Assembly (NCBI RefSeq): GCF_003334765.1 | Contig: NZ_QOWT01000043.1 | DNA length: 28,524 nt | Direction: 5' to 3' (one strand) | Source of the DNA: Escherichia coli | Lineage (GTDB): Bacteria; Pseudomonadota; Gammaproteobacteria; Enterobacterales; Enterobacteriaceae | Part shown: in pieces, positions 9,357 through 12,770 of the stretch | Numbering within the stretch: the stretch's first letter is position 1 | Layout: each line of letters starts with the position of its first letter | Position numbers and translations under genes: made by a program | The notes under the pieces: model-generated | The model's input: only the letters and a program-made list of their open reading frames with translations | The model's database searches: none | What the model was told of the DNA's origin: nothing

Positions 9357-12300
9357 TCACTCCTGTACTACTGGACATATTGTTATATTGCCGGGCAGTC
9401 TGGAAATCCAGGCACTTTTCTCCCAGCTATGTGTGGTAAGCAGCTTATTACTCAGATTCACCTGTAAATCTTTAAGTTTATCCTTTTCCTGTTTTAGTTG
9501 TTCCCATTCGATATATGCCTGACTTAGATTGCCTGTATCACTCAGTTTGTAACGGACAAGAATGCCTTTAATCCCCATTGATTCGAGAAAATTTCTTGAT
9601 TCTGGAGAAAAATCCTTTGTCATTAACTCACTCTCTCCATCCGAAAACTTGTTGATAAAATCAATCCAGGCTGTTTCTCCTGTAAACTTATAGGTGGCAG
9701 AAAAATTAGGGAACAAAATGTCAATTCTTACAGAGTGACAGCTTCCCGGATACCAGGTAAAAATACCTGAATCAGCAAAATTCATACTTCGTATACTGCT
9801 GTTACCTGTTTTACACTCAAGAGTCAGAGTTGTACCTGTTGGTTTGACTCGGGGATTATCCGGAATTGTCGCAGGTGCACTATCTATCGTAACTCTGTAA
9901 GGCTGTGACTCAGCATTTTGTAGGGTCTGATTCAGTAAGTCTAGTTGCCCCTGTACATTTATTAATTCATCCTTGTTTTGCGTTCGCTCTCTGAGCCAAA
10001 CATCAAGCAGATCATCCGGGGAAACAATGTCATTAATGAAAGTAATGAATGAAGGGGAAAAAGGTATACTTCTTTCCCTGAAGGACAACAGTCTGACACC
10101 GTCTGGATCAAGCGCTAAAACTCCGTTAGACGGACCTTTCAAAAAGCCAATAATGTCCTTATATACTTTTCCCTGCATCTCAGAATAACTGAGATTATGT
10201 TTTCCTGAGTTAAACCGGCCTAAAACAGAATTCCTCCATTGTTCACCAACCCAACACCCTGTATAAGTGACAGCATGGTCGAGAAGTTGATAAATCTGCC
10301 GCTCATAAATATCCCATACAGAATCAATCACCGGCTCTCTATTATTGCTGTTAATGACTGAGCGAACCTTTTCAAACTCATCAAATAATATTACCAGCTT
10401 GTTTTCTGGATCTGAACGCATGGCATTACGAATAAGTTCAACTGATGATGCTGTATGTAACACTGAATTCACGGCATTACGTAGAGCATTCTGCCAGCTT
10501 CTCCATGTGGTAACATGAGTCAGTGTCCTGTTCATTTGACTGTTATTAAGAACAGAAATCAGGTATATACGTAACATGAGATCAAATTGTTCTATTTGAC
10601 GTTTCATTCCGTTATCCACTTTAAGTGAAAACAGATGGTTAAGCAGTCTGAATTCAGAAAGCCAGTCCTGCGCCGAACTCGTTGGTATATTGTGTAATTC
10701 ATCATCTACAAACTGAAAGAATCTATGCTCAGATGAGCGATTGTGTATAATATTGGTCAGTTGCAGCGGATTCATTAAACCTGAATGTGAGTCTTTACGT
10801 GCCCTTGCAACAGACATAATAAACTGTCTGAAATGCTCCTGACGACTTTCATCCAGGTATAGCACAAAGGATGAGAACGCCTCCGGAACCGTATCACGTC
10901 CATATGCCTCTTTGATAGTCTCATACCACTGATGAAGTTTATTCTGTCCCGGTTGTGTCCATATTCCGGAAAGATAGACAGAAGAGTTTTCATCTTCCCA
11001 AAAGTCCGTAATTCTTACAGCAGGAATATTAACATCTTCAGAAACAAACCATGAATAAGACGGGTCACTCTGAACCAACTCAGTCAGGAGGTTTCTGAAC
11101 ACATAAATATTCTCAATTCCATTATTTTTCTGTATCTCATCTCTTTCTACAGCAAGTGAAGCTATTGATGATATTTTATCATGAGGTCTGGTTATCTTCA
11201 GTAACTCATGAATACCAGGAGATTTTGCTAAGTCACTCAGGGATTCATCTTTCATCATCTTATCCCAACTGATAAGTGATGATGAGAGCGACAGAATTAG
11301 TTCTCGCTTTCCTGATGGTGAAGCTTGCATGAAATTCTTCTTATATTCAGTAACGCGCCATGAGACAGGACTGATATCGAATCTTGTTGTTTTATGAAGA
11401 GATTCTCTGAAAAATAGATATTTATCATCTAGTGCAGGCTTAAAAGGGAAATACCGCATGTTAGACCTAACTTTGTCTTCATATTTTGATATCTGCTCTG
11501 TCAGAAATGCATGGCTGGTATCAACAGAACCATGTCTGATGTTATACACATTATATGAACAATATCCGCTATATCCAACAAAACACAATGCAGTCATGGC
11601 TATAACTGATTTAAACGATACATTCACTCTTTGTTTGTTAACATGAATAACGTCTGAATCATGTATTTGTGGCAGTATCTCGGAAATAAGGATATCAGCA
11701 AAAATACAGTTTTTGTCCTTCTCCCCCATGAGTTCACCAGATAAACAGAGCCCGGCAATTTCCGTCTGAGAGAAAAAAACGTTCTCAATACAGAATGTGG
11801 AAATAAATATGTCAAGTGAATACTTTAGACCTTTCAATCTATCAGGAAACTGCAGTATATCATTTTTTTCCTTGTCACTTAATGAATCATCAAGCGCATG
11901 GCATATTGATGCCATTATATTAGATCTTAATGATGATAATATGTATGATGAATCATATTCAGATGCATTCGTCCCTGATTTATTGGTTGCCCAAAACACT
12001 GGATGCCATTTTTCATGTTTTTGATAGATTTTTTGTGCCAGCACTGAATATCCACTGATGTGCTCACATCCACTAATCACTATAAAGACCGGAATGTTGT
12101 GATGTAAGTGTAACGACAGTTGTTCTACAAAACTCCTTGTTTTTTGAGACAATGTCCGAATATAGGTGTAATCATGATTAATTAGCTTATCAGCAGAAAT
12201 GACGAGAACAACGCCACGAGGTGGCTGTTTTTTACATTTACGTGCTGATAAAGAACTTATCACAGAGTTTATTACTCCCGGGTTATCATATATCTTTCCT

Positions 12301-12770
12301 GACAACTCCAGCACGCTTAAATCTCTGAAAAACCACCAACGAATTGTCCGGAATTGTTGGGGAGTGCTATTTACACAATTACGGTGAAAGACAGGAAGAT
12401 TGATATCTTCAAGCAAAGAGTTGTTTTTTTCTGAATCTCCCGTAAGTAAGAACCAAGGAACCTCTCCTCTTCCCCTTTTACTTATGATATTCAGACCTTT
12501 TTTGAAATACGAATCAAGCGTCAATGCTCTCTTTTTACGAGAGAAAGACTTTAGAAAATTTCTGTATTTTCCTGCAGAAAAGTAATTATGGATACAATCC
12601 ATAATAAATTTAAAGGAAAGAGTAACAAGAATCACAGAAATCCAGTAAAGTGCAGTTGTAGTATCTGTCCAGTTTCTGAACACGCCGATAACATAGCAAA
12701 CAGACAGAACGAAGACAGAAACAAAAAACCAGAGAAATAATGAAAATGTCTTCTTAAGCATAAAAATCAT
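9357..12770 (-). CDS. tssM: TssM (IcmF-like) inner-membrane T6SS component
   Basis: 1137 aa. N-terminal hydrophobic helices (FSLFLWFFVSVFVLSVCYVIGVF; LYWISVILVTLSF) followed by the ...VPWFLLTGDSEKNNSLLE... block where TssM normally carries Walker A. Size and position after tssL are typical. Overlaps tssL by 4 nt. Confidence 0.85.
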   Translation of the reverse strand: MIFMLKKTFSLFLWFFVSVFVLSVCYVIGVFRNWTDTTTALYWISVILVTLSFKFIMDCIHNYFSAGKYRNFLKSFSRKKRALTLDSYFKKGLNIISKRGRGEVPWFLLTGDSEKNNSLLEDINLPVFHRNCVNSTPQQFRTIRWWFFRDLSVLELSGKIYDNPGVINSVISSLSARKCKKQPPRGVVLVISADKLINHDYTYIRTLSQKTRSFVEQLSLHLHHNIPVFIVISGCEHISGYSVLAQKIYQKHEKWHPVFWATNKSGTNASEYDSSYILSSLRSNIMASICHALDDSLSDKEKNDILQFPDRLKGLKYSLDIFISTFCIENVFFSQTEIAGLCLSGELMGEKDKNCIFADILISEILPQIHDSDVIHVNKQRVNVSFKSVIAMTALCFVGYSGYCSYNVYNIRHGSVDTSHAFLTEQISKYEDKVRSNMRYFPFKPALDDKYLFFRESLHKTTRFDISPVSWRVTEYKKNFMQASPSGKRELILSLSSSLISWDKMMKDESLSDLAKSPGIHELLKITRPHDKISSIASLAVERDEIQKNNGIENIYVFRNLLTELVQSDPSYSWFVSEDVNIPAVRITDFWEDENSSVYLSGIWTQPGQNKLHQWYETIKEAYGRDTVPEAFSSFVLYLDESRQEHFRQFIMSVARARKDSHSGLMNPLQLTNIIHNRSSEHRFFQFVDDELHNIPTSSAQDWLSEFRLLNHLFSLKVDNGMKRQIEQFDLMLRIYLISVLNNSQMNRTLTHVTTWRSWQNALRNAVNSVLHTASSVELIRNAMRSDPENKLVILFDEFEKVRSVINSNNREPVIDSVWDIYERQIYQLLDHAVTYTGCWVGEQWRNSVLGRFNSGKHNLSYSEMQGKVYKDIIGFLKGPSNGVLALDPDGVRLLSFRERSIPFSPSFITFINDIVSPDDLLDVWLRERTQNKDELINVQGQLDLLNQTLQNAESQPYRVTIDSAPATIPDNPRVKPTGTTLTLECKTGNSSIRSMNFADSGIFTWYPGSCHSVRIDILFPNFSATYKFTGETAWIDFINKFSDGESELMTKDFSPESRNFLESMGIKGILVRYKLSDTGNLSQAYIEWEQLKQEKDKLKDLQVNLSNKLLTTHSWEKSAWISRLPGNITICPVVQE

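What the first reader, a model, noticed from the sequence alone, without database searches (positions are those of the whole stretch)
9357..12770. TssM lacks a canonical Walker A motif
Where IcmF/TssM proteins typically carry 'PWY..IG..GSGK[ST]', this protein reads VPWFLLTGDSEKNNSLLE, with no GxxxxGK[ST]. That implies a TssM without NTP binding, a feature known to be variable and sometimes dispensable among T6SSs.
Basis: partly seen in the sequence, partly recalled or inferred. Interest (0 to 1): 0.35.

Follow-up and report, generated by a model that had tools for sequence, protein, structure and literature searches.

The report
TssM with a dead GTPase domain
The membrane-anchor protein (TssM/AaiO) of the known aai type VI secretion system of enteroaggregative E. 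coli 042 keeps the shape of a GTP-binding domain but has lost every nucleotide-binding motif; TssM proteins without this motif have been reported before, so the finding is correct but ordinary.

Summary
The window is the aai/Sci-2 T6SS cluster of E. coli 042. ORF 9357-12770(-) is its TssM and reads VPWFLLTGDSEKNNSLLE at residues 104-121, where 91 of 98 distant TssM representatives carry GxxxxGK[ST].

There is no Walker A, no GK[ST], no hhhhDxxG and no [NT]KxD anywhere in the 1137 residues. All three G motifs are degenerate: G1 is GDSEKNNS, G3 is ELSG, G4 is SGCE.

The loss is shared by the whole E. coli/Salmonella/Yersinia clade. That clade is nested in an Enterobacterales subfamily with a P-loop one residue shorter (GxxCGK[ST]). 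At least four other losses occurred in that subfamily.

A review citing Dudley 2006 reports that aaiO is needed for AaiC/Hcp secretion. Walker A-less TssMs (P. aeruginosa IcmF3) are published, and the Sci-1 TssM of the same strain also lacks the motif.

The parts
9357..12770 (-). tssM (aaiO by gene order) of the aai/Sci-2 T6SS, 1137 aa (RefSeq WP_001403210.1 starts at 12761, 1134 aa)
   Evidence: ORF. 100% identical to E. coli 042 NC_017626.1 4905477-4908890. hhalign to canonical TssM: probability 100%, E 2.8e-68. Pfam finds PF14331 only. TIGR03348 scores 42.7 bits against a cutoff of 388.
12678..12734 (-). TM1 (residues 13-31)
   Evidence: Kyte-Doolittle 19-residue mean of 2.46.
12600..12656 (-). 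TM2 (residues 39-57)
   Evidence: Kyte-Doolittle mean of 1.76.
11616..12587 (-). Cytoplasmic domain (residues 62-385): G-domain-like core (about 100-260) plus a helical extension
12417..12440 (-). Degenerate G1/Walker A site, residues 111-118, GDSEKNNS (canonical GESGSGKT)
   Evidence: Alignments. In the aai clade the G and K columns have entropy 2.17 and 1.16, against 0 in canonical TssMs.
12297..12320 (-). G3/Walker B remnant, residues 151-158, LSVLELSG (canonical hhhhDTAG). E155 and S157 are invariant in the clade.
12063..12083 (-). G4 remnant, residues 230-236, IVISGCE (canonical hhVTKCD)
11571..11627 (-). TM3 (residues 382-400)
   Evidence: Third-highest hydropathy peak, 1.44. hhalign aligns it with the canonical TM3 region.
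9360..11570 (-). Periplasmic domain (residues 401-1137)
   Evidence: Aligned to the canonical TssM periplasmic region up to residue 1084. The best-scoring stretches of distant hits fall at profile positions 830-1130. Pfam does not detect it.
12767..13369 (-). tssL (DotU family, short form), whose stop overlaps the tssM start as ATGA
   Evidence: TIGR03349 at 89.5 bits. RefSeq annotation. Sequence.
6804..9353 (-). tssH/clpV (aaiP), the recognisable ATPase of the cluster
   Evidence: TIGR03345 at 950.8 bits, above the cutoff of 884.95.
13696..15126 (-). tssK baseplate subunit
   Evidence: TIGR03353 at 253 bits.

Best explanation
The ORF is the TssM (AaiO) inner-membrane subunit of the aai/Sci-2 type VI secretion system of enteroaggregative E. 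coli 042. Its cytoplasmic loop between TM2 and TM3 keeps the fold of a Ras/Rag-like G domain but has lost the residues that bind nucleotide. The P-loop Gly-Lys-Ser/Thr is replaced by variable residues, the G3 DxxG is now ELSG, and the G4 [NT]KxD is now SGCE. The domain is therefore most likely a pseudo-GTPase: a fixed scaffold that, together with TssL, docks the baseplate onto the membrane complex. It is not an NTP-driven switch or motor. The only recognisable energy-coupling enzyme in the cluster is ClpV. Shown here: the motif loss, the fold retention in a model, purifying selection, clade-wide distribution and full-length TssM homology. Taken from the literature: aaiO is required for AaiC/Hcp secretion and aaiA-P suffice in E. 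coli K-12. Inferred: no nucleotide binding, and the scaffold role.
Against: No nucleotide-binding measurement exists for this protein, and a model cannot exclude non-canonical binding. Several residues around the former site remain conserved in the clade: G111, S118, E155 and S157. These could reflect residual phosphate or Mg2+ contacts rather than packing alone. In A. tumefaciens, TssM ATPase activity is required for Hcp secretion (PMC3346141), so dispensability is not universal. The identification of aaiO with this ORF rests on counting genes A to P in order, anchored on aaiC = hcp in the RefSeq annotation; the primary paper could not be read. The NJ tree has no support values.
Confidence: 0.8

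Rival explanations
1. The domain still binds nucleotide through a non-canonical site, for example using K115 or K159 together with the conserved E155, S157 and S118. On this view TssM remains an NTP-dependent switch despite lacking a textbook Walker A.
For: G111, S118, E155 and S157 are invariant or nearly invariant in the clade. The closest outgroup keeps GK[ST] in a shortened loop in 23 of 33 representatives, so nucleotide binding may have been ancestral until recently. The fold is intact.
Against: K115 is present in only 42% of clade members and is replaced by Q, N, E, H or D. There is no GK[ST] anywhere in the protein. G4 is also lost. In the model, no helix follows strand beta1, whereas the canonical TssM model has helix 65-72 directly after the P-loop.
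Confidence: 0.1
2. The gene is a decaying remnant of a non-functional T6SS, and the lost motif is part of general erosion.
For: The cluster is flanked by IS elements and pseudogenes. NCBIfam and Pfam recognise the protein only weakly.
Against: The 1137-codon ORF is intact and is 100% identical in at least 8 listed genomes; 98 genomes carry a full-length copy. dN/dS is about 0.2 across all domains. All core genes are intact. The same gene order is found in Dryocola. The literature reports aaiO-dependent AaiC secretion.
Confidence: 0.03
3. The apparent loss is an alignment or annotation artefact, and an intact P-loop lies elsewhere in the protein or in another frame.
For: The protein is very divergent. 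It has no PDB sequence hits and no significant BLASTP similarity to Sci-1 TssM.
Against: MAFFT L-INS-i, MAFFT auto and hhalign all place the same segment after the conserved PW[YF] motif. No GK[ST] exists anywhere in the protein. The AF2 model puts residues 106-111 as strand beta1 of the G domain.
Confidence: 0.02

Closest known systems
Canonical T6SS TssM/IcmF, e.g. A. tumefaciens TssM (ImpL) and the T6SS-2 TssM of E. coli 042
   Same: Length is about 1130-1150 aa. Two N-terminal TM helices, a cytoplasmic G-like domain, a third TM and a large periplasmic domain. Encoded next to tssL. Full-length profile homology. The G-domain models hit the same GTPases.
   Different: Canonical proteins carry LPWYxVIGxxGSGK[ST], hhhhDxxG and TKxD or TRLD. 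The A. tumefaciens protein hydrolyses ATP and needs both motifs for Hcp secretion (PMC3346141). The aai protein has none of these motifs and falls far below the TIGR03348 cutoff.
P. aeruginosa IcmF3 (PA2361, H3-T6SS)
   Same: Published as lacking a Walker A motif and as lacking detectable IcmF-related and DUF1215 domains (PMC4589678). The aai TssM shows the same Pfam picture, with PF14331 only. From my own knowledge, not tested here: both systems are usually placed in subclass i4b.
   Different: Direct relatedness was not tested here because the PA2361 sequence was not retrieved. The aai clade found here is confined to Enterobacterales.
EAEC Sci-1 TssM (EC042_4539 region; the subject of the membrane-complex structures)
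   Same: Same strain and same pathogenicity island. It also has no Walker A or GK[ST] in its cytoplasmic domain.
   Different: No significant pairwise similarity to the aai TssM. Pfam sees its periplasmic domains (PF06761, PF21070, PF06744) but not its N-terminal domain, which is the reverse of the aai protein.
Short-P-loop TssMs of Serratia, Pantoea, Dryocola and related Enterobacterales (P0023-P0052)
   Same: These are the closest outgroup, aligned over the full length at 330-700 bits. The T6SS gene order is identical. They share the same one-residue deletion in the P-loop region.
   Different: They keep GK[ST] as GxxCGK[ST] in 23 of 33 representatives, and mostly keep T[QE]CD at G4.
Pseudo-GTPases, e.g. 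the GTPase-like domain of FBXO4
   Different: No evolutionary relationship is implied. The scaffold role of the aai domain is inferred.

Membership tests
TssM/IcmF (T6SS membrane-complex subunit) | Full-length sequence homology to TssM | tested here: met
   hhalign of A1 against the canonical alignment A4: probability 100%, E 2.8e-68, 1020 columns, residues 1-1084. The profile search recovers 2329 TssM-like proteins.
TssM/IcmF (T6SS membrane-complex subunit) | Passes the curated equivalog model TIGR03348 (cutoff 388 bits) | tested here: not met
   42.7 bits, residues 179-340 only. PGAP accordingly names it only 'IcmF/TssM N-terminal domain-containing protein'. This reflects divergence, not absence of homology.
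TssM/IcmF (T6SS membrane-complex subunit) | Three TM segments, with a cytoplasmic domain between TM2 and TM3 and a large periplasmic C-terminal part | tested here: met
   Hydropathy peaks at residues 13-31 (2.46), 39-57 (1.76) and 382-400 (1.44). The soluble G-like domain is modelled between them. TM3 is the weakest call.
TssM/IcmF (T6SS membrane-complex subunit) | Pfam periplasmic domains IcmF-related (PF06761) and IcmF_C (PF06744) | tested here: not met
   Only PF14331 is detected. The region nevertheless aligns to canonical TssM at profile level.
TssM/IcmF (T6SS membrane-complex subunit) | Encoded with tssL, tssJ and tssK in a complete T6SS cluster | tested here: met
   The cluster holds tssB, C, hcp, F, G, vgrG, PAAR, A, J, K, L, M and clpV. 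The same order is found in Dryocola.
TssM/IcmF (T6SS membrane-complex subunit) | Required for Hcp secretion | not testable with these tools
   Literature only: the aaiO mutant loses AaiC secretion (PMC6730261 citing Dudley 2006). The identification of aaiO with this ORF is inferred from gene order.
Active P-loop GTPase/NTPase (TRAFAC class) | G1/Walker A GxxxxGK[ST] | tested here: not met
   GDSEKNNS lies at the homologous site. There is no GK[ST] anywhere in the protein.
Active P-loop GTPase/NTPase (TRAFAC class) | G3/Walker B hhhhDxxG | tested here: not met
   The site reads VLELSG: Asp is replaced by Glu and the Gly is kept. G158 is present in only 47% of the clade.
Active P-loop GTPase/NTPase (TRAFAC class) | G4 [NT]KxD | tested here: not met
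   SGCE at residues 233-236.
Active P-loop GTPase/NTPase (TRAFAC class) | G-domain alpha/beta fold | tested here: met
Active P-loop GTPase/NTPase (TRAFAC class) | Binds and hydrolyses nucleotide | not testable with these tools
   Requires biochemistry.
T6SS subclass i4b (E. coli T6SS-3) | Phylogenetic placement of core genes (TssB/TssC) in the i4b clade | not tested
   The assignment of aai/Sci-2 to T6SS-3/i4b is from my own knowledge. PMC12282107 only confirms that E. coli has subclasses i1, i2 and i4b.

The most novel reading that the evidence does not exclude
The Enterobacterales aai-type TssM subfamily records a stepwise natural decay of a G domain. The series runs from the canonical form (GxxxxGK[ST], DxxG, TKxD), to a conserved P-loop one residue shorter (GxxCGK[ST], [DE]xSS, T[QE]CD), to complete loss in the E. 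coli/Salmonella/Yersinia clade. At least four further independent losses occur in the subfamily. If the short loop still binds nucleotide, it would be an unusual functional Walker A variant. The series would then give matched natural pairs with identical gene order for testing whether TssM nucleotide turnover is a regulatory add-on rather than part of the T6SS firing mechanism. That question has stayed contradictory between A. tumefaciens and E. tarda.
Probability: 0.3. Interest if true: 0.4.

Novelty: new member of a known kind. Interest (0 to 1): 0.2.

Why it matters
The role of the TssM NTPase is an unresolved point in T6SS mechanics. It is required in Agrobacterium, dispensable in Edwardsiella and absent from IcmF3. 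This TssM belongs to a system reported to secrete Hcp, yet it lacks all G motifs while keeping the fold under purifying selection. That supports the view that nucleotide turnover by TssM is not intrinsic to T6SS firing. It also explains why automated annotation fails to call this protein TssM. Beyond that, the finding confirms known variability in a well-studied strain, so its impact is modest.

Tried and rejected
- Sequence searches of the PDB with the protein and with the family profile gave no hits. No solved homologue could be used directly.
- BLASTP against Sci-1 TssM gave no significant alignment.
- The word-indexed homologue search found only 18 close relatives. The exhaustive profile search was needed to reach the outgroups.
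It was repeated with 64 sequences.
- Logger et al. 2016 and Ma et al. 2009 are not held. Dudley et al. 2006 could be cited only through a review.
- Several 'Walker A' literature hits were matches in reference lists only.
- I considered that the Lys in GDSEKNNS might be a shifted P-loop lysine. I rejected this because it is present in only 42% of the clade.
- I considered a pseudogene or decaying system. I rejected this on dN/dS and ORF integrity.
- I did not retrieve PA2361, so relatedness to IcmF3 is untested.
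Full report
**What the window is.** The 3414-base region is 100% identical to E. 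coli 042 (NC_017626.1 4905477-4908890) and to several other E. coli chromosomes. In total, 98 of 5426 complete genomes carry a full-length copy. The RefSeq annotation around it shows a complete type VI secretion cluster on the minus strand of the window. The order is tssB, tssC, aaiC/hcp2, a small hypothetical gene, tssF, tssG, vgrG, DUF6931, PAAR, tssA, tssJ, tssK, a DotU-family tssL, the ORF in question, then tssH/clpV. IS elements and pseudogenes flank the cluster. This is the AggR-regulated aai (Sci-2) cluster of the pheU island of enteroaggregative E. coli. Counting genes A to P from tssB makes the ORF aaiO. That count is consistent with aaiC being the annotated hcp, but it is an inference from gene order.

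**The observation.** ORF 9357..12770(-) encodes 1137 aa. VPWFLLTGDSEKNNSLLE occupies residues 104-121, window 12408-12461. The whole protein contains no GxxxxGK[ST], no [AG]xxxxGK[ST], no GK[ST], no hhhhDxxG and no [NT]KxD. A random protein of this composition would carry the PROSITE P-loop pattern only 3.5% of the time, so absence alone says little. The relevant comparison is the homologous position.

**Is it TssM?**
- The curated models barely see it. TIGR03348 gives 42.7 bits against a cutoff of 388.
- Pfam finds only IcmF-related_N (PF14331, residues 178-344).
- PDB sequence searches give nothing.
- A profile of 14 clade members (A1) aligns to a profile of 16 canonical TssMs (A4) with probability 100%, E 2.8e-68, over 1020 columns covering residues 1-1084.
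- Hydropathy gives TM1 at 13-31, TM2 at 39-57 and a weaker TM3 at 382-400.

It is therefore a divergent but full-length TssM in the standard genomic position.

**Alignment with Walker A-positive homologues.** An exhaustive profile search of 1.84 billion representatives found 2329 relatives. I also took two TssMs from the same genome. The T6SS-2 TssM reads LPWYMVIGPAGSGKSALL, with VIFDVDG and TRLD. In a MAFFT L-INS-i alignment of the N-terminal 460 residues of 75 proteins, and independently in two larger MAFFT alignments and in hhalign, the segment after the conserved PW[YF] falls into three states.

| Group | G1 (Walker A) | G3 (Walker B) | G4 |
|---|---|---|---|
| Distant TssMs | G-x4-GK[ST] in 91 of 98 representatives | hhhhDTAG | hhVTKCD |
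| Enterobacterales subfamily, aligned over full length at 330-700 bits (Serratia, Pantoea, Dryocola, Citrobacter) | One residue shorter, GxxCGK[ST], in 23 of 33 | [DE]xSS | T[QE]CD |
| aai clade (E. coli, Salmonella, Yersinia) | Neither form in 15 of 15: GDSEKNNS, GDSIQNTS, GSSDNSTS, GHADNNES and others | ELSG | SGCE |

The counts are and the G3 and G4 columns. The columns that are invariant G and K in canonical TssMs (entropy 0) have entropy 2.17 and 1.16 in the aai clade. The flanking P105, W106, G111, S118 and L119 stay conserved. The lysine in GDSEKNNS is present in only 42% of the clade, so it is not a shifted P-loop lysine.

**Evolution.** A neighbour-joining tree on 1139 trimmed columns (no support values) makes the aai clade monophyletic and nests it inside the short-P-loop subfamily. 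This implies one loss at its base. Further apparent independent losses are P0030+P0045, P0032+P0037, P0058, members of the P0053-P0059 group, and P0061. Seven of 98 distant representatives also lack the motif. A Dryocola locus that encodes a short-P-loop TssM has exactly the same gene order as aai. The difference therefore lies in the protein, not in the system.

**Fold.**
- AlphaFold2 on residues 62-388 with a 64-sequence alignment gave pLDDT 87.8 and pTM 0.88.
- One difference appeared. The control has a helix immediately after the P-loop (model residues 65-72). The aai model has no helix in the 30 residues after strand beta1. This rests on models only and should be read with caution.

**Selection.** Against two plasmid-borne orthologues (84-87% nucleotide identity), dN/dS is 0.17-0.23 in the G-domain core, 0.21-0.22 for the whole gene and 0.21 for the periplasmic part. 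Mean pairwise identity in the clade is 64% in the core against 65-71% in the periplasmic parts. The domain is maintained. Only the former nucleotide-contact residues are free to vary.

**Function and mechanism.** A review citing Dudley et al. [quoted passage not shown] PMC4374921 refers to an antibacterial assay established for the EAEC Sci-2 T6SS. The system is thus reported to work with this TssM. The best-supported reading is that the cytoplasmic domain is a pseudo-GTPase scaffold that anchors the baseplate to the TssJLM complex. ClpV is the only recognisable ATPase in the cluster (950.8 bits to TIGR03345). Absence of nucleotide binding is inferred, not measured. The conserved G111, S118, E155 and S157 leave a small possibility of non-canonical binding.

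**Comparison with what is known.**
- Ma et al. 2012 (PMC3346141) showed that A. tumefaciens TssM is an ATPase. Its Walker A and its GTPase-type Walker B (hhhhDxxG) are needed for Hcp secretion, and they noted a distal (N/T)KxD motif.
- Lin et al. 2015 (PMC4589678) state that the E. tarda Walker A is dispensable. [quoted passage not shown] IcmF3 also lacks detectable IcmF-related and DUF1215 domains, which is the same Pfam picture as here.
- The Sci-1 TssM of the same strain, the subject of the membrane-complex structures, also has no Walker A or GK[ST] in its cytoplasmic domain. Pfam sees only its periplasmic domains.

Two of the three TssMs of strain 042 are therefore Walker A-less. I found no paper that states this for AaiO specifically, but the kind is known.

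**Verdict.** The gene and the system are known, and Walker A-less TssMs are documented. What this analysis adds:
- All three G motifs have decayed while the G fold is retained under purifying selection.
- The loss is shared by the whole clade.
- The nearest relatives carry a conserved P-loop one residue shorter.

Interest is low (0.2). The short-P-loop series is the only part that might repay experiments.

Noticed in passing
window 12761-12770 (-): The ATG at 12770 overlaps the tssL stop as ATGA, a typical arrangement for translational coupling. RefSeq and most homologues start 9 nt downstream at MLKK (1134 aa). The true start is ambiguous.
   Followed up: partly
L002:28249-31638 (E. coli 042 Sci-1 tssM, outside the window): The Sci-1 TssM also has no Walker A or GK[ST] in its cytoplasmic domain (it reads RILLITGTASEVELL). 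Pfam detects only its periplasmic domains, the mirror image of the aai TssM. PGAP names it 'ImcF-related family protein' rather than TssM.
   Followed up: partly
P0023-P0052 (Serratia, Pantoea, Dryocola and others); L004:10001-13441: The closest outgroup subfamily has a conserved P-loop one residue shorter than Walker A, GxxCGK[ST], in 23 of 33 representatives. A conserved Cys precedes the GK. Whether this loop binds nucleotide is unknown.
   Followed up: partly
window 9357-12770; plasmid loci L005, L006: aai-type tssM copies at 80-87% nucleotide identity sit on 49 plasmids, 48 of them from E. coli and 1 from Salmonella. Of these, 36 are predicted conjugative. The two examined are IncF. About half of the E. 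coli genome hits are on plasmids, so this T6SS type is plasmid-mobile.
   Followed up: partly
window 13358-13695: A 338-nt gap lies between tssK and tssL and holds an unannotated 104-aa ORF (13354..13668, -), possibly the historical aaiM. In the syntenic Dryocola locus tssK and tssL overlap directly, with no such gap.
   Followed up: no
window about 4900-6610 and 25567-26583: The cluster is bracketed by IS debris. Downstream of clpV lie an IS3-family pseudogene and a 96-nt tssB fragment. Upstream of tssB lies an IS630 pseudogene. A VasL-domain gene (1434..2588, -) is separated from clpV by these insertions, whereas in Dryocola the ImpA_N/VasL gene directly follows clpV.
   Followed up: no
window 22266-22688 (-): The 140-aa 'hypothetical protein' between hcp and tssF is probably the TssE (gp25-like) subunit. 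Its Dryocola counterpart in the same position has a weak GPW_gp25 Pfam hit.
   Followed up: no
window 12767-13369 (-): TssL is also divergent. It scores 89.5 bits on TIGR03349, just under the cutoff of 89.95, and 50 bits on the short-form TssL model against a cutoff of 180. The whole membrane complex of this T6SS type is poorly covered by the curated models.
   Followed up: no
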